Source of the DNA: a virus
Strand: one strand, 5' to 3'
Length of the DNA stretch: 14,706 bases
Virus genome (UHGV): UHGV-0056970
Part shown: one piece after another, positions 7,106 to 10,354 of the stretch
How the letters are laid out: each line of letters starts with the position of its first letter
Numbering within the stretch: position 1 is the first letter of the stretch
Made by a program: the position numbers and the translations under genes
The notes under the pieces: generated by a model
The model's database searches: none
The model's input: only the letters and a program-made list of their open reading frames with translations
Told to the model about the DNA's origin: nothing

Positions 7106-7738
7106 TTACCTTTTTCGCCTGTAAATTCTATGTTCGACCATTACGCCGATAATTTTCAACGGGCGTTCAGAGCTATTAATGGTGGGGTAGTCGTCATTAA
7201 GGGGGACCAGTTCATATTGCTGGCGGCCTGAAATATCGGTAAATGTAGGACGGTACTTTTTAAAAGTAGCCTCATTTTCACCATTTTTAGCAACAACAAA
7301 CTCGCCCGGAACGGGCTCTAACTCTGGATCAACAATGATAATGTCGCCTTCTTTAAAGTCAGGCTCCATTGAATCACCTTCTATCCTTAGTGCAAAAGTA
7401 AACTCAGAAATATCAAGGTCAGTCATGATGTATTCGAAGCTACCATCAAATGCATCAATAGGGTGTTTTTCTGCTAACGCCCCAGCCTGGACGTAACTGA
7501 TCAAAGGTACTTTCCTTGAATTCACATCGTCCAGAGCCATGAAAGGCCCACCGTTCATCAACCATGTTGGGTCGCACTTAAGTGCTTTGCTTATTCCTAC
7601 TATGTTGCGAGGCTTTTTAGTTTTTCCATCCTCAATGCTGGCCCATGATTGTTGCCTTATTCCTGCCTTTTCAGCTGCTTGCTCTTGAGTAAGACCAAGT
7701 TCGATTCTTTTTTGTTTTACGCGTTCTGCAAGGCTCAT
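7106..7738 (-). CDS. cI: CI/LexA-type prophage repressor (HTH_XRE N-terminal domain, S24 peptidase C-terminal domain)
   Basis: 210 aa. N-terminal HTH (LGLTQEQAAEKAGIRQQSWASIEDG). Ala-Gly cleavage-site candidate (YVQAGALA). Catalytic Ser in GDSMEP and downstream Lys (TFKKY), the Ser-Lys dyad of self-cleaving repressors. Divergent from a cro-like gene across an operator-rich intergenic region. Confidence 0.9.
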   Translation of the reverse strand: MSLAERVKQKRIELGLTQEQAAEKAGIRQQSWASIEDGKTKKPRNIVGISKALKCDPTWLMNGGPFMALDDVNSRKVPLISYVQAGALAEKHPIDAFDGSFEYIMTDLDISEFTFALRIEGDSMEPDFKEGDIIIVDPELEPVPGEFVVAKNGENEATFKKYRPTFTDISGRQQYELVPLNDDYPTINSSERPLKIIGVMVEHRIYRRKR

Positions 7739-7766
7739 AGCTCCTCCATTCCCATGGCCTCATGGT

Positions 7767-7826
7767 CACAGTTTAAACTGTGATTGACAAACAGTAGTAT
7801 CTGTTCAAAAATACAGATAAAACTGT
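7767..7826. promoter_or_regulatory. Immunity-region operators: three dyad sites (ACAG-N6-CTGT) spanning the divergent cI/cro promoters
   Basis: Site 1 7767..7782 CACAGTTTAAACTGTG (perfect 16-bp palindrome); site 2 7791..7804 ACAGTAGTATCTGT; site 3 7813..7826 ACAGATAAAACTGT. Centre-to-centre spacing about 22-23 bp. TTGACA at 7784..7789 sits between sites 1 and 2; site 3 abuts the cro RBS. Confidence 0.6.
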
Positions 7827-7835
7827 GGAGGTGTT

Positions 7836-8066
7836 ATGGAATCAATTTCTCAAAGATTAAAGAATAAACGTGAAGAGATGAATCTCTCACAAGCGCAATT
7901 GGCTGAATTGGTCGGAATGACCCAGCAGTCATTACAAGCGATCGAGGCGGGTTTAACAAAGAGACCCCGTTACATCATTGAATTGTCTTCAGCCCTGCAT
8001 TGCGATCCTCATTGGTTGCTCTATGGCGAGGGTGCTAATCAGAACGATAGCGCTTCAGGGGTGTAA
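7836..8066 (+). CDS. cro: Cro-like HTH_XRE transcriptional regulator
   Basis: 76 aa. HTH (LSQAQLAELVGMTQQSLQAIEAG) paralogous to the cI N-terminus. RBS GGAGGTG. Divergent from cI. Confidence 0.8.
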   Translation: MESISQRLKNKREEMNLSQAQLAELVGMTQQSLQAIEAGLTKRPRYIIELSSALHCDPHWLLYGEGANQNDSASGV

Positions 8067-8094
8067 CAGAAACCACAGAGGTAGGGGGTAAGCC

Positions 8095-8646
8095 GTGGGT
8101 ATAGAACCAGAATGGAAAGTTGATAAGCAGCCGCCTTGGCTGGTAGCTGCGATTAAAAAAACGATCACTGATTTGGACGGGGGGTATGCAGAAGCAGCTG
8201 AATGGCTTGGCGTTACTGAAAACGCATTGTTTAACCGCTTACGTGCCGATGGTGATCAAATTTTCCCTCTGGGCTGGGCAATGGTTCTACAGCGTGCTGG
8301 TGGGACGAATCATATCGCCAATGCGATAGCGCGCCACTCGAACGGGGTCTTTGTGCCGCTGGCAGACATTGAGGATGTAGACAACGCCGATATAAACCAG
8401 CGCCTGATGGAGTCTATCGAGTGGATCGGAAAGCACTCACAGTATCTCCGTAAAGCTACAGCTGACGGTGTTATTGACCAGGCAGAACGCGAGCAGATCG
8501 AGGAGAACAGTTATCAGGTGATGGCGAAATGGCAGGAACATTTGACATTGCTTTTCCGTGTCTTTTGCCAGCCAGAAAAGAGTGACGCCCGCGAGTGTGC
8601 AGCTCCGGGCGTCGTGGCGAATAAATCTTTGTGTATGGAGAAATAA
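8095..8646 (+). CDS. Phage CII-like regulatory protein (tentative)
   Basis: 183 aa directly after cro, in the position of lambdoid cII-type regulators. GTG start with RBS AGGGGG. Family assignment from memory only. Confidence 0.45.
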   Translation: MGIEPEWKVDKQPPWLVAAIKKTITDLDGGYAEAAEWLGVTENALFNRLRADGDQIFPLGWAMVLQRAGGTNHIANAIARHSNGVFVPLADIEDVDNADINQRLMESIEWIGKHSQYLRKATADGVIDQAEREQIEENSYQVMAKWQEHLTLLFRVFCQPEKSDARECAAPGVVANKSLCMEK

Positions 8647-8818
8647 TCCGCATGAGCAATTTAATCGTAAATCTTCAATTACCGCAACTACGGATGTACC
8701 CGATCCCGGGCGTTTCGTCGTTTCGGTATGAGCGCATGGTATGCGGTAAATGGGTCGAGTGTAACCACAGTCGGGCACGCGGAGTTGTGGGGGTCTTTAA
8801 CCGGAGGGCAAAAGCGTT

Positions 8819-8998
8819 ATGCGAGAAGTTAACCGGAAGTTCAAAGACCACTACGGCAATCCAGTCAGAGTTATCCGCTGGGAGCCTGAGACACGTCGCG
8901 TCATCTACCTGCGGGAAGGCTATTCCCACGAGTGCTTTAGCCCACTCGATCAGTTTCAACGCAAGTTCAGGGAAGTAGAGGGCAGCCATGAGCAGTAA
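8819..8998 (+). CDS. Small phage protein (59 aa), DUF4222-like
   Basis: RBS GGAGGG then ATG at 8819; MREVNRKFKDHYGNPVRVIRWEPETRRVIYLREGYSHECFSPLDQFQRKFREVEGSHEQ. Stop overlaps the start of the replication gene (ATGAGCAGTAA). Not in the supplied ORF track (under 60 aa). Competes with a longer ORF in another frame (8631..8978). Confidence 0.45.
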   Translation: MREVNRKFKDHYGNPVRVIRWEPETRRVIYLREGYSHECFSPLDQFQRKFREVEGSHEQ

Positions 8999-9899
8999 AT
9001 TACACGGCCTCGTATGGGAAGCATGCGCTTTCAAAGGGCTGATAATCTCAGAAATAGCGGTCATGGCTCGCCTGGCAGATTTCAGTAATGACGAAGGTGT
9101 GTCATGGCCAGCGGTAACCACTATTCAGCGACAGATCGGCGCCAAGAGCGAGAATACTGTCCGCAGCGCTATCAAAAAGCTTCAGGCTAAAGGCTGGCTG
9201 AAGAAGCAGGAACGGCGCGTGGGCGGAAAGAATAATTCAAACGTTTATAAACTCAATGTGGACATGCTTGAACGTGCAGCATCTGAAGCAAAAATCTTCT
9301 ACGCAACGCCACGTGAACAATCAAAATTTGATGCCTCAGAATTTGAGGGTTCAAAATTTGAGGGGTCAAATTCTGATGCCTCAAATAATGGGTCTGTACC
9401 CCCTCAAATATTGCGGGAGGACCCCTCAATGGTTGAAGGCGATCCGTCATTAGATCCGTCATTAGATCCGTCATCTAAAAAACCTTCTTGTCGGGCTCCT
9501 GCGGAACCCGACGATAAGCCGGATCCTGAAGTTGTTATTACCGATAACGCGATCGAAGTTCTGGCACACCTGAATCTGGTCAGCGGTTCCCGTTACCAGA
9601 AATCTAAGACCTCACTGGAGAACATTCGCGCGCGCCTCCGTGAAGGTCATACCGTTAGCGACTTGAAACTGGTAATCGACGTCAAACATGAGCACTGGCA
9701 TGGCAACGACGAGCAATACCAGTACATGCGACCCGAGACACTTTTCGGCCCTAAAAAATTCGAGGGATATCTGCAAAGCGCTATCCGTTGGGATGCCAAA
9801 GGCCGCCCGCCAAGGGAGTTGTGGGACAAAACCAGACCGCGGGATGTTAATTCAATTAGTCCAGTACAAACCACGATTCCACGGGGGTTCCGGGGATGA
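8988..9899 (+). CDS. Replication initiator, lambda O-like (N-terminal HTH/DNA-binding, repeat-containing linker, conserved phage C-terminal domain)
   Basis: 303 aa. The linker region is encoded by tandem 15-bp and 12-bp DNA repeats (iterons), as with lambda ori inside gene O. The C-terminal region (LKLVIDVKHEHWHGNDEQYQYMRPETLFGPKKFEGYL) looks like the conserved C-terminus of phage replisome organisers. Stop overlaps the next start (ATGA). Confidence 0.65.
   Translation: MSSKLHGLVWEACAFKGLIISEIAVMARLADFSNDEGVSWPAVTTIQRQIGAKSENTVRSAIKKLQAKGWLKKQERRVGGKNNSNVYKLNVDMLERAASEAKIFYATPREQSKFDASEFEGSKFEGSNSDASNNGSVPPQILREDPSMVEGDPSLDPSLDPSSKKPSCRAPAEPDDKPDPEVVITDNAIEVLAHLNLVSGSRYQKSKTSLENIRARLREGHTVSDLKLVIDVKHEHWHGNDEQYQYMRPETLFGPKKFEGYLQSAIRWDAKGRPPRELWDKTRPRDVNSISPVQTTIPRGFRG
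9321..9476. repeat. Iteron array (candidate origin of replication) inside the O-like gene
   Basis: Five in-phase tandem 15-bp units at 9321..9395 (TCAAAATTTGATGCC / TCAGAATTTGAGGGT / TCAAAATTTGAGGGG / TCAAATTCTGATGCC / TCAAATAATGGGTCT), two degenerate units at 9404..9418 and 9426..9440, then three 12-bp units GATCCGTCATTA at 9441..9476. Confidence 0.55.
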
Positions 9900-10354
9900 A
9901 CATAGCCAAGTCGATCTTTGAATTTATTGAGAAGAATCCAGGCAAAATGCTGCGCGATATCACTGCGGCATTTCCTGAAACCAAACCGGTAACAGTGAAG
10001 AGCGCTGTTCATCGCCTGTACTACGACGGGGAACTTGCCAGCGTTGAAGTTACTGGTGGGTTTATCTACTTCGTAGCGGGATCCATTGATATTGAAGAGT
10101 ACCTGCCTGGTGGGCTTTCGGGGGAGATTCTTGCCCTTGAAGCGACAGCCAAAAAGCTGGAAGAGAAACGCTATTACCGCCGTGCGGCGACAGTATGGCA
10201 GCAACTTTGTGACAGCAACTGTACGGCTAAAGCAAGAGAGCGGTACCTGCGTCTTAAGAATGCTTCTGTTCGAAACGCCAGAAACATGAATGATTCCGCC
10301 GGGTCATGCTATCTGGCCGAGAATTACTGCGGAGGTGACTTGTGCTCCGATTGA
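9896..10354 (+). CDS. Putative transcriptional regulator (winged-helix-like N-terminus, PerC/ANR-like C-terminal motif), tentative
   Basis: 152 aa. ATGA start-stop overlap with the upstream gene. C-terminal RRAATVWQQLCDSNCTAKARERYLRLKN resembles the RAA..W motif of PerC-family prophage regulators (recollection, not searched). Confidence 0.4.
   Translation: MNIAKSIFEFIEKNPGKMLRDITAAFPETKPVTVKSAVHRLYYDGELASVEVTGGFIYFVAGSIDIEEYLPGGLSGEILALEATAKKLEEKRYYRRAATVWQQLCDSNCTAKARERYLRLKNASVRNARNMNDSAGSCYLAENYCGGDLCSD

What the first reader, a model, noticed from the sequence alone, without database searches (positions are those of the whole stretch)
8631..8998. Competing overlapping reading frames upstream of the replication gene
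The 59-aa DUF4222-like frame (8819..8998) has a strong RBS and a plausible conserved-looking sequence. A longer ORF in another frame (8631..8978) overlaps it completely; its 5' part (from ATG 8652) reads like protein but its 3' part is low-complexity Ser/Ala-rich. This may be one real small gene plus frame noise, or a frameshifted upstream gene.
Basis: seen in the sequence. Interest (0 to 1): 0.2.

Follow-up and report, generated by a model that had tools for sequence, protein, structure and literature searches.

The report
Two real genes sharing one DNA stretch
Both reading frames seem to be used: a homologue of the E. coli e14 prophage cell-division inhibitor YmfM runs on, in a second frame, through a small well-conserved gene (DUF4222, the RgdR family), and selection keeps that second frame free of stop codons until just before the phage replication gene.

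Summary
ORF 8631/ATG 8652..8978 and ORF 8819..8998 overlap out of frame for 160 nt, in a Klebsiella lambdoid prophage between a YmfL/CII-like gene and the replication gene.

The short frame is a solid DUF4222 protein (Pfam E=3e-17). It has an SH3/Tudor-like fold, pN/pS 0.13, and is 41% identical to the characterised regulator RgdR.

The long frame is the homologue of e14 YmfM/SfiC. It has a confidently folded 62-residue N-domain (pN/pS 0.39 in that frame only) and a 46-residue tail predicted to be disordered, encoded over DUF4222.

The tail shows no amino-acid constraint, but it is not noise:
- In 74-97 distinct relatives the frame is always open, against about 0.05 expected.
- It always ends at the same stop, 9 nt upstream of and in frame with the replication-gene ATG.
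- DUF4222 codon choice avoids every synonymous codon that would create a stop.
- DUF4222 genes with no upstream gene reading in (RgdR, Morganella, Rha/ANT-preceded) do carry stops in that frame.

Most likely this is a genuine nested gene pair. The open tail probably serves as a ribosome relay to the replication gene; that step is inferred.

Curated K-12 annotates only ymfM and PGAP only DUF4222. The published ymfM experiments did not separate the frames.

The parts
8095..8646 (+). ymfL / CII-like regulatory gene. It lies immediately upstream, and its stop TAA (8644-8646) is 5 nt before the ymfM-like ATG.
   Evidence: NCBIfam phage_reg_YmfL E=8e-57. Pfam Phage_CP76 E=3e-9.
8652..8978 (+). ymfM-like gene (the 'Y frame'), 108 aa, with stop TAG at 8976-8978. 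The mechanical ORF opens at GTG 8631, and GGAG sits at 8637-8640.
   Evidence: ORF. PHROG 1170 E=2.5e-14. The N-domain is 35% identical to e14 YmfM, E=8e-9. A profile search finds 373 protein clusters; nearly all of the 120 listed are 108-112 aa.
8652..8837 (+). Folded N-domain of the YmfM-like protein, residues 1-62: three beta-strands and a long helix (39-62). The helix ends about 6 codons into the overlap.
   Evidence: AlphaFold block-mean pLDDT is 93-95 for residues 11-50 and 85 for 51-60. pN/pS is 0.39 in this frame against 1.56 and 1.03 in the others. The domain occurs as a stand-alone 53-69-aa gene in other phages. The N-part alone hits PHROG 20047.
8838..8975 (+). Tail of the YmfM-like protein, residues 63-108. 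It is predicted to be disordered and is Ser/Thr/Ala/Gly-rich. It is encoded in the +1 frame of DUF4222.
   Evidence: pLDDT <50 for residues 65-108. S+T+A+G is 59%. There is no amino-acid-level constraint: pN/pS is 2.19 against 2.24 for the unused frame. The frame is nevertheless open in 92/92 unique relatives.
8803..8808 (+). Shine-Dalgarno sequence (GGAGGG) of the DUF4222 gene, lying inside ymfM-like codons (..N R R..).
   Evidence: Sequence. An SD-like motif of at least 4 nt is present upstream of the DUF4222 start in 72 of 74 unique relatives.
8819..8998 (+). DUF4222 gene (RgdR family), 59 aa, with stop TAA at 8996-8998. It lies in the -1 frame relative to the ymfM-like gene.
8819..8978 (+). 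Dual-coding overlap (160 nt). DUF4222 codon position 3 is YmfM codon position 2.
8828..8830 (+). DUF4222 codon 4 (GTT, followed by AAC). This is a stop-risk site: GTA or GTG here would give TAA or TGA in the ymfM frame. The same applies to codon 18 (8870-8872, GTT+ATC) and codon 28 (8900-8902, GTC+ATC). It applies conditionally to codons 16 (8864), 19 (8873) and 31 (8909).
   Evidence: In 74 unique sequences these three sites use only T/C-ending codons (0/222 purine-ending), although GTG+GTA make up 45% and CTG 49% of usage in the flanking genes. Covariation at codon pairs 16/17, 19/20 and 31/32 is.
8976..8978 (+). Stop codon of the ymfM-like frame (TAG), made from DUF4222 codons GTA-GAG. It is 9 nt upstream of, and in frame with, the replication-gene ATG.
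   Evidence: The DUF4222 codon here is always xTA (74/74, zero parsimony events) although the residue varies between I, L and V. The position is fixed in all relatives.
8988..9899 (+). Replication initiator gene (HTH_36 plus Phg_2220_C), with ATG 8988 and GAGGG at 8978-8982. It is in the same frame as the ymfM-like gene.
   Evidence: Pfam. In relatives with at least 5 unrelated replication-gene N-termini, the ATG is always at this position and in this frame.

Best explanation
The interval holds a genuine out-of-frame nested gene pair, in the early-right operon of a lambdoid (e14/mEp-like) Klebsiella prophage.

Gene 1 (8652-8978) is the homologue of the e14 cell-division inhibitor YmfM/SfiC. 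It has a folded ~62-residue N-domain followed by a 46-residue tail that is predicted to be disordered.

Gene 2 (8819-8998) is a DUF4222/RgdR-family SH3-like protein. It is translated from its own Shine-Dalgarno sequence and ATG inside gene 1, in the -1 frame.

DUF4222 is the sequence-constrained partner. The YmfM tail is an overprinted extension whose amino-acid sequence is free, but whose reading frame is kept open by selection on DUF4222 synonymous codons.

The most likely reason is inferred, not shown. Ribosomes that start at ymfM (itself abutting the ymfL stop) must run to the fixed stop at 8976-8978, which lies in the replication gene's SD region, 9 nt upstream of and in frame with its ATG. 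There they hand over to the replication gene by termination-reinitiation. The conserved stop also prevents an in-frame YmfM-replication protein fusion.

Shown: both ORFs, their homologies, their folds, stop avoidance, the fixed stop, and the junction geometry.

Inferred: that both frames are translated in this phage, and that coupling is the selective reason.
For: 1. DUF4222 is a real protein. Pfam E=2.9e-17; pN/pS 0.13; a confident SH3/Tudor-like model. A homologue, RgdR, was purified and mutagenised in that frame (PMC3378721).

2. The N-domain is coding in the long frame. pN/pS is 0.39 against 1.0-1.6 in the other frames; pLDDT is 93-95 for residues 11-50; it is 35% identical to the e14 YmfM N-domain. 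Expression of the ymfM ORF causes filamentation (bioRxiv 10.1101/2020.11.19.390815).

3. The long frame is open across DUF4222 in 92/92 unique cores of this clade. Given the DUF4222 protein and codon usage, 0.05 is expected. The third frame is always closed. These sequences form 12-19 lineages at 10-15% nt distance.

4. Codon-level signature:
- Val/Leu codons followed by an A-starting codon are never purine-ending (0/222).
- GTG at codon 16, ATA at codon 19 and CTG at codon 31 occur only when the next codon starts with C. Pooled Fisher p=1e-16, not corrected for phylogeny.
- On a tree, all 13 changes at risk sites are pyrimidine-to-pyrimidine, while 22 of 38 changes at control fourfold sites go to a purine. 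The probability of this is about 1e-5.

5. The stop of the long frame is invariant in position (xTA-G/A, 74/74) while the DUF4222 residue there varies.

6. The replication-gene ATG is always 9 nt after that stop and in that frame, across at least 5 unrelated replication modules. The DUF4222 stop meanwhile floats 8-89 nt downstream.

7. Natural controls. DUF4222 genes with no ORF reading in carry stops in that frame: RgdR has 6, the Morganella clade is closed in 41/41, and 5 of 6 Rha/ANT-preceded lineages are closed. In the Morganella clade (41 of 42 unique junctions), the Yersinia clade (35 of 35), RgdR and two checked Rha/ANT-preceded loci, DUF4222 itself is joined to the replication gene by ATGA.

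8. Three very divergent N-domain types all read on in the same frame to the same stop.
Against: - There is no expression or proteomic evidence for either frame in this phage.
- In this window alone the open frame has a chance probability of 0.10.
- The tail shows no amino-acid constraint, and DUF4222 synonymous divergence is not reduced (pS 0.655 against 0.66-0.68 in the flanking genes). The only signal for the tail is ORF maintenance.
- The coupling explanation rests on geometry only. DUF4222 ribosomes also pass the replication-gene start, and the replication gene has its own SD here (GAGGG).
- Stand-alone N-domain genes exist, so the tail is not needed for the N-domain in general.
- The Providencia/Proteus-like clades keep the same frame open (29/29, expected 0.025) without an N-domain fusion. 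This fits a relay only if a separate ATG there is used.
- The Yersinia clade is mostly open (28/34) without any start codon.
- The Fisher tests ignore shared ancestry.
Confidence: 0.6

Rival explanations
1. The tail peptide itself is functional. It would be a disordered C-terminal region of the YmfM-like division inhibitor, needed for example as a protease handle or degron, a spacer, or an interaction region with loose sequence requirements. Truncation is selected against for that reason, not for ribosome delivery.
For: The length is very uniform: nearly all of the 120 listed proteins (373 clusters in all) are 108-112 aa. The tail is predicted disordered and STAG-rich, and disordered regions can tolerate high pN/pS. 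In the mEp460/ST64B clade the same segment links the N-domain to Ash+Rha domains in one 383-aa ORF.
Against: pN/pS of the tail frame (2.19) equals that of the unused frame (2.24). Fourfold DUF4222 sites use all four bases, so tail residues switch chemical class freely. Much of the Ser richness is a by-product of stop avoidance (xTC+A gives TCA). N-domain-only genes of 53-69 aa exist in related phages. This reading does not explain why the stop is always 9 nt before, and in frame with, the replication ATG.
Confidence: 0.2
2. One real small gene plus an accident. DUF4222 and the N-domain gene are real, but the N-domain ORF simply runs on to the first available stop. The open frame would be a by-product of DUF4222 sequence and shared ancestry, with no selection.
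For: The single-sequence chance of an open frame is 0.03-0.14. There is no amino-acid constraint on the tail. The sequences are related.
Against: Context-dependent codon choice at six sites. All 13 changes at risk sites are pyrimidine-to-pyrimidine, against 58% of changes going to purines at control sites. Synonymous sites are near saturation between lineages (pS about 0.66), yet 92/92 are open. Stops accumulate in uncoupled DUF4222 genes, including at the same Val-Ile site (GTG ATT). The stop position is invariant while the DUF4222 residue there changes.
Confidence: 0.08
3. Programmed ribosomal frameshifting. Ribosomes starting at the ymfM-like ATG would slip -1 into the DUF4222 frame (or DUF4222 ribosomes +1 into the long frame), making a fusion protein, as in phage tail-chaperone G/GT genes.
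For: The two frames are in a -1 relation. The DUF4222 frame is open for 87 nt upstream of its ATG. One database protein (P0124) is an N-domain/tail/DUF4222 C-terminus chimera.
Against: No X XXY YYZ heptamer is conserved in the long frame; the best is 21/74, near the 3' end. There are no conserved homopolymer runs. DUF4222 has its own SD in 72/74 sequences. A shift site would not require the whole long frame to stay open. P0124 is a single Logan-assembly sequence (one member, one 4-kb contig) and looks like a deletion. There is no Rfam element.
Confidence: 0.03
4. Only the long frame is real, and DUF4222 is a spurious Pfam family built from the alternative frame of ymfM-like genes.
For: Phage annotators often call only the long frame (phages Eeyore and SKA5; K-12 curated annotation).
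Against: Variation is concentrated at DUF4222 third positions (0.45 against 0.12 and 0.08 at positions 1 and 2) and pN/pS is 0.13. DUF4222 genes exist with no overlapping ORF (RgdR, Morganella, L322 type). The fold prediction is confident. RgdR has been characterised experimentally.
Confidence: 0.01

Closest known systems
YmfM / SfiC of E. coli K-12 cryptic prophage e14 (b1148, 'cell division inhibitor YmfM')
   Same: Same position, between ymfL and the replication gene. Similar length (112 against 108 aa). The N-domain is 35% identical (E=8e-9). An intact 59-aa DUF4222 frame is nested in the same way, with a TTG start and an AAGGAG SD. The stop lies at the same place, 9 nt before the replication-gene ATG.
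   Different: The N-domain belongs to a different, divergent sequence type. Division inhibition has been shown only for e14 ymfM. It was shown with a clone of the whole ORF, which also carries 53 of the 59 DUF4222 codons, and with a deletion that removes both frames. Function in this Klebsiella phage is untested.
RgdR (ECs1581) of EHEC O157 prophage Sp7/OI-51, the only characterised DUF4222 protein
   Same: Same Pfam domain (E=2e-23 for RgdR, 3e-17 here). The core is 41% identical. Both lie immediately upstream of a replication gene.
   Different: RgdR is 99 aa and sits in a P4-like element. It is joined by ATGA to a primase gene and is not overlapped: its +1 frame has 6 stops. Its RGD motif is absent here. 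Its reported activities (LEE1 activation, motility repression, non-specific DNA binding; PMC3378721) cannot be transferred to this protein without a test.
Lambda Rz/Rz1 and other out-of-frame nested phage genes (recalled from general knowledge)
   Same: A small gene with its own start lies inside a larger gene in another frame of a lambdoid phage. Annotation pipelines tend to keep only one of the two.
   Different: Rz and Rz1 are both sequence-constrained functional partners. Here the overprinted part of the outer gene shows ORF maintenance only. The inner gene also extends 20 nt beyond the outer one, into a third gene.
Translational coupling by termination-reinitiation at stop/start junctions in polycistronic operons (general knowledge)
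   Same: The stop lies 9 nt upstream of the next ATG, inside its SD region. Neighbouring junctions in this operon are similarly tight: ymfL stop, 5 nt, then ATG here; ATGA in e14 and mEp460.
   Different: The coupled upstream frame runs for 53 codons across another gene. Coupling has not been measured.
mEp460 / ST64B / SfV 'Rha family' 383-aa proteins
   Same: They start at the ymfL stop, have a degenerate N-domain, and read in the same frame across an intact DUF4222 gene.
   Different: There is no stop after the overlap. The frame continues into Ash (PF10554) and Rha (PF09669) domains. An internal GTG/TTG start for Ash-Rha cannot be excluded.

Membership tests
DUF4222 (PF13973) | Match to the Pfam model above the gathering score | tested here: met
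   62.4 bits against a cut-off of 27, E=2.9e-17, residues 3-54.
DUF4222 (PF13973) | Evolves as a protein in that frame | tested here: met
   pN/pS is 0.13. Pairwise differences at codon positions 1/2/3 are 0.12/0.08/0.45.
RgdR regulators | RGD tripeptide just before the conserved core, reported as important for T3SS activation | tested here: not met
   The alignment to ECs1581 starts after the motif. The window protein reads MREVNRKF at that place (PMC3378721).
RgdR regulators | Regulatory activity (LEE1 activation, motility repression, DNA binding) | not testable with these tools
   Needs experiments.
YmfM / SfiC (e14 cell-division inhibitor) | Sequence homology of the non-overlapped N-domain. 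Tail similarity is forced by DUF4222 and does not count. | tested here: met
   35% identity over 61-65 aa, pairwise E=8e-9. The N-part alone also hits PHROG 20047.
YmfM / SfiC (e14 cell-division inhibitor) | Synteny: directly after ymfL and directly before the replication gene | tested here: met
YmfM / SfiC (e14 cell-division inhibitor) | Blocks Z-ring formation when expressed | not testable with these tools
   Shown only for the e14 ORF clone.
Functional out-of-frame overlapping gene pair | The alternative frame is open more often than the primary protein sequence and codon usage predict, across diverged relatives | tested here: met
   92/92 open against 0.05 expected. Codon covariation and a parsimony test support this.
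Functional out-of-frame overlapping gene pair | Reduced synonymous rate, or amino-acid constraint, in the second frame | tested here: not met
   pS is 0.655 against 0.66-0.68 in the flanking genes. pN/pS of the tail frame is 2.19, about the same as the unused frame.
Functional out-of-frame overlapping gene pair | Both frames translated | not testable with these tools
   Each has an SD and a start codon. No ribosome profiling or proteomics was available; no paper holds both 'ymfM' and 'ribosome profiling'.
Programmed -1 ribosomal frameshift (G/GT type) | A conserved slippery heptamer in the zero frame within the overlap | tested here: not met
   No heptamer occurs in more than 21 of 74 sequences, and none at a shared position near the start of the overlap.
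Translational coupling (termination-reinitiation) | The stop of the upstream frame lies within a few nucleotides of the downstream start | tested here: met
   TAG 8976-8978 and ATG 8988. The 9-nt spacing and shared frame are conserved in all nested-type relatives.
Translational coupling (termination-reinitiation) | Downstream translation depends on upstream translation | not testable with these tools
   Needs reporter fusions.

The most novel reading that the evidence does not exclude
The +1 frame of DUF4222 genes may be a 'translated conduit'. It would be conserved only as an open frame, with no peptide constraint, and its job would be to carry ribosomes from the upstream early gene to the start of the phage replication gene.

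It would do this either as a tail of YmfM (this clade), as a linker into Ash-Rha (mEp460 clade), or as a separate ATGA-coupled mini-ORF (Providencia, Proteus-like, Erwinia).

A corollary concerns E. coli. The phenotypes assigned to ymfM/SfiC were obtained with constructs that also carry or remove the nested RgdR-like DUF4222 gene. The division-inhibition (or another) phenotype could therefore belong partly or wholly to the other frame.
Probability: 0.3. Interest if true: 0.6.

Novelty: new member of a known kind. Interest (0 to 1): 0.45.

Why it matters
1. It resolves a systematic annotation conflict. For the identical K-12 sequence, the curated record lists only ymfM and PGAP lists only a DUF4222 protein. 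In the rows sampled across the roughly 2,000 matching E. coli genomes, PGAP lists DUF4222 and never ymfM. Phage annotators pick either one. Both genes probably exist.

2. It flags a confound. Published ymfM/SfiC over-expression and deletion experiments did not separate the two frames. The nested gene belongs to the family of RgdR, a prophage regulator of virulence and motility.

3. It offers a clean natural system for studying overprinting:
- nested and un-nested arrangements of the same two modules;
- stop-codon avoidance visible codon by codon;
- a testable hypothesis, that an ORF can be maintained for ribosome delivery to a replication gene rather than for its peptide.

Tried and rejected
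- **Programmed frameshift.** I scanned 74 unique sequences for X XXY YYZ heptamers and homopolymer runs. None is conserved.
- **RNA element.** An Rfam E-value scan of 7700-9400 gave no match.
- **Internal promoter or terminator.** The consensus scan of 8000-9400 found no promoter-like site and two terminator-like sites, no more than the shuffled sequences gave.
- **Synonymous-rate suppression in the overlap.** Not found; pS equals that of the flanking genes, but the pairs are near saturation, so power is low.
- **Amino-acid constraint on the tail.** Not found.
- **Distant relatives by alignment.** The alignment-based locus search in IMG/VR returned only the closest 80 again. I had to query with individual distant proteins instead.
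- **Literature.** No paper holds ymfM together with DUF4222, RgdR or ECs1581, or ymfM together with ribosome profiling. The screen paper PMC6206680 does not resolve frames.
- **mEp460-type 383-aa ORF as proof of translation.** I considered this and downgraded it, because in-frame GTG/TTG codons near the DUF4222 stop could start Ash-Rha (read from the sequence).
Full report
**Setting**

The window is a lambdoid prophage, 98.5% identical over 8072-9900 to Klebsiella phage Kp4866-6. Around the finding the gene order is:
- cI-like repressor, 7106-7738 (-)
- Cro-like HTH, 7836-8066
- YmfL/CII-like gene, 8095-8646 (NCBIfam E=8e-57)
- the two competing frames
- a replication initiator with HTH_36 and Phg_2220_C domains, 8988-9899

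**Observation**

Both ORFs exist as described.

The long frame opens at GTG 8631. Its homologues start at the ATG that corresponds to 8652, which lies 5 nt after the ymfL stop and has GGAG at 8637-8640. It ends at TAG 8976-8978.

The short frame runs from ATG 8819 (GGAGGG at 8803-8808) to TAA 8996-8998. It lies in the -1 frame relative to the long one.

The overlap is 160 nt, not the whole short ORF. The short frame also overlaps the replication gene by 11 nt.

**What each frame is**

The short frame is DUF4222: Pfam E=2.9e-17 and PHROG 1343 E=3e-31.

The long frame has no Pfam or NCBIfam hit. It matches PHROG 1170 over its full length, and its first 54 residues alone match PHROG 20047.

It is the positional and sequence homologue of E. 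coli e14 ymfM, annotated 'cell division inhibitor YmfM'. The non-overlapped N-domains are 35% identical (E=8e-9). In e14 the same 59-aa DUF4222 frame is intact inside ymfM, with a TTG start and an AAGGAG SD.

Annotation is split:
- Curated K-12 has only ymfM.
- PGAP on the identical sequence has only DUF4222, and the rows sampled across about 2,000 E. coli genomes read the same way.
- Phage submitters call either one.

**Comparative data**

I collected 106 loci with a close DUF4222 relative, then further clades.

In every member of the window's clade, the long frame ('Y') starts 167-179 nt before the DUF4222 start. It ends at one and the same aligned position. The third frame is always closed.

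The Y protein has at least three very divergent N-domain types, yet all read on in the same frame. A profile search finds 373 protein clusters; nearly all of the 120 listed are 108-112 aa.

**Which frame is constrained where**

Upstream of the overlap, pN/pS is 0.39 in Y and 1.0-1.6 in the other frames.

Inside the overlap it is 0.13 in the DUF4222 frame, 2.19 in Y and 2.24 in the unused frame. Variation sits at DUF4222 third positions.

DUF4222 synonymous divergence is not lower than in the flanking genes (0.655 against 0.66-0.68).

So the Y tail has no detectable amino-acid constraint.

AlphaFold agrees. The Y protein has block-mean pLDDT of 93-95 over residues 11-50 (three strands and a helix to residue 62) and below 50 for residues 65-108. 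DUF4222 folds as an SH3/Tudor-like barrel with pLDDT 83.

**The tail is still not noise**

Given the DUF4222 protein and local codon usage, the Y frame should be open with probability about 0.05, or 0.10 for this window. It is open in 92/92 unique cores, which form 12-19 lineages at 10-15% nt distance.

The signal is visible codon by codon:
- Val/Leu codons 4, 18 and 28 are each followed by an A-starting codon. They use only T/C endings (0/222 purine-ending). In the flanking genes GTG+GTA make up 45% and CTG 49% of usage.
- GTG at codon 16, ATA at codon 19 and CTG at codon 31 appear only when the next codon begins with C.
- When the next codon is AGA, AGG or AAA, the C-ending synonym is used. 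Pooled Fisher p=1e-16, uncorrected for ancestry.
- On an NJ tree, all 13 changes at the three always-at-risk sites are pyrimidine-to-pyrimidine. At control fourfold sites, 22 of 38 changes from a pyrimidine go to a purine. The probability is about 1e-5.
- The codon that makes the Y stop is always xTA (74/74, no change on the tree), although the DUF4222 residue there is I, L or V.

**Natural controls**

Where no ORF reads into DUF4222, the Y frame decays:
- RgdR has 6 stops.
- The Morganella clade is closed in 41/41. There the N-domain homologue is a separate 66-aa gene in the third frame.
- A subfamily has a Rha/ANT gene inserted between a stand-alone 59-63-aa N-domain gene and DUF4222. It has 1-5 internal stops in 5 of 6 lineages, including GTG ATT at the conserved Val-Ile site.

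**Junction geometry**

In the nested clade the replication-gene ATG always lies 9 nt after the Y stop and in the Y frame. This holds whichever of at least five unrelated replication modules follows. The DUF4222 stop floats 8-89 nt downstream, giving DUF4222 lengths of 59-86 aa.

In the Morganella and Yersinia clades, 11 of 19 Providencia junctions, RgdR and two checked Rha/ANT-preceded loci, DUF4222 itself is joined to the replication gene by ATGA, and that gene lies in the third frame.

This is why I favour a ribosome relay, ymfL to ymfM to the replication gene. The conserved stop also prevents an in-frame fusion. This step is inferred from anatomy only.

**Things that do not fit neatly**

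- The Providencia and Proteus-like clades keep Y open (29/29, expected 0.025) although the N-domain gene ends in the third frame. In most of them its stop overlaps a Y-frame ATG (AATGA or TGATG), 8 nt after the DUF4222 start. Erwinia and Hafnia are similar. That is compatible with a separately initiated relay ORF, but it is unproven.
- The Yersinia clade is mostly open (28/34, expected 0.13) with no start codon. This may be recent decay.
- In mEp460, ST64B and SfV, Y has no stop and runs into Ash+Rha domains as a 383-aa ORF across an intact DUF4222. An internal GTG/TTG start cannot be excluded.

**Rivals**

A functional but sequence-tolerant tail peptide remains possible (confidence 0.2).

Pure accident is unlikely, given the covariation and the controls.

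Programmed frameshifting lacks a conserved slippery site.

A spurious DUF4222 is contradicted by its constraint, its fold, the free-standing members, and RgdR experiments (PMC3378721).

**Known versus new**

ymfM/SfiC and RgdR/DUF4222 are each known. I found no paper that connects them or mentions the overlap.

The ymfM papers cloned or deleted the whole ORF. That clone carries 53 of 59 DUF4222 codons with their SD.

Out-of-frame nested genes are a known kind in phages, so this is a new member of that kind. Its unusual feature is an overprinted frame conserved only as an open frame.

Noticed in passing
window 8675-9121 (-): A 148-aa antisense ORF spans the whole DUF4222 region. Its codons are in register with DUF4222 codons, so it is the usual 'shadow' ORF: its stops would need TTA, CTA or TCA sense codons. 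Shorter versions occur in relatives.
   Followed up: partly
window 9321-9385 and 9441-9476: Tandem repeats lie inside the replication gene: a 15-nt unit in 4.3 copies and a 12-nt unit (GATCCGTCATTA) in about 3 copies. They may be origin iterons, as in lambda ori inside gene O.
   Followed up: partly
window 8988; relatives L080, L071, L097, L012, L016: The mosaic joint between phages lies exactly at the replication-gene ATG. At least five unrelated replication-gene N-termini follow the same upstream sequence. As a result the DUF4222 C-terminus varies from 59 to 86 aa, because it reads into whatever follows.
   Followed up: yes
L107 1852-3003, L108 1858-3015, L109 2970-4118, L024: In the mEp460, ST64B and SfV-type phages, the frame that overlaps DUF4222 has no stop. 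It continues into Ash (PF10554) and Rha (PF09669) domains. PGAP calls the 383-aa ORF 'Rha family phage regulatory protein' and, in the one PGAP-annotated locus examined (L109), lists no DUF4222 gene.
   Followed up: partly
L111, L194-L213, L265-L276, L025, L110: In Providencia, Proteus-like, Erwinia and Hafnia phages, a Y-frame ATG sits 8 nt after the DUF4222 start (formed by AAT/GAT GAA codons). It overlaps or abuts the stop of the upstream gene (ATGA, TGATG, TGA-ATG). The Y frame is stop-free in 29/29 unique Providencia and Proteus-like sequences, against 0.025 expected.
   Followed up: partly
L001 1526-2066 (E. coli strain 1943): ymfL is frameshifted there and fuses with the ymfM-like frame into a 290-aa ORF. 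PGAP marks ymfL as a pseudogene and annotates only DUF4222 downstream.
   Followed up: no
protein P0124 (Logan assembly): This 105-aa protein is N-domain + part of the tail + DUF4222 C-terminus. It looks like a deletion that joins the two frames, or an assembly error.
   Followed up: no
L334 4305-4604 (E. coli O157 Sakai ECs1581 = RgdR): DUF4222 genes sit directly upstream of a replication gene both in lambdoid phages (O-like) and in a P4-like element (primase, with an ATGA junction). This suggests a replication-linked role in addition to the reported T3SS regulation.
   Followed up: partly
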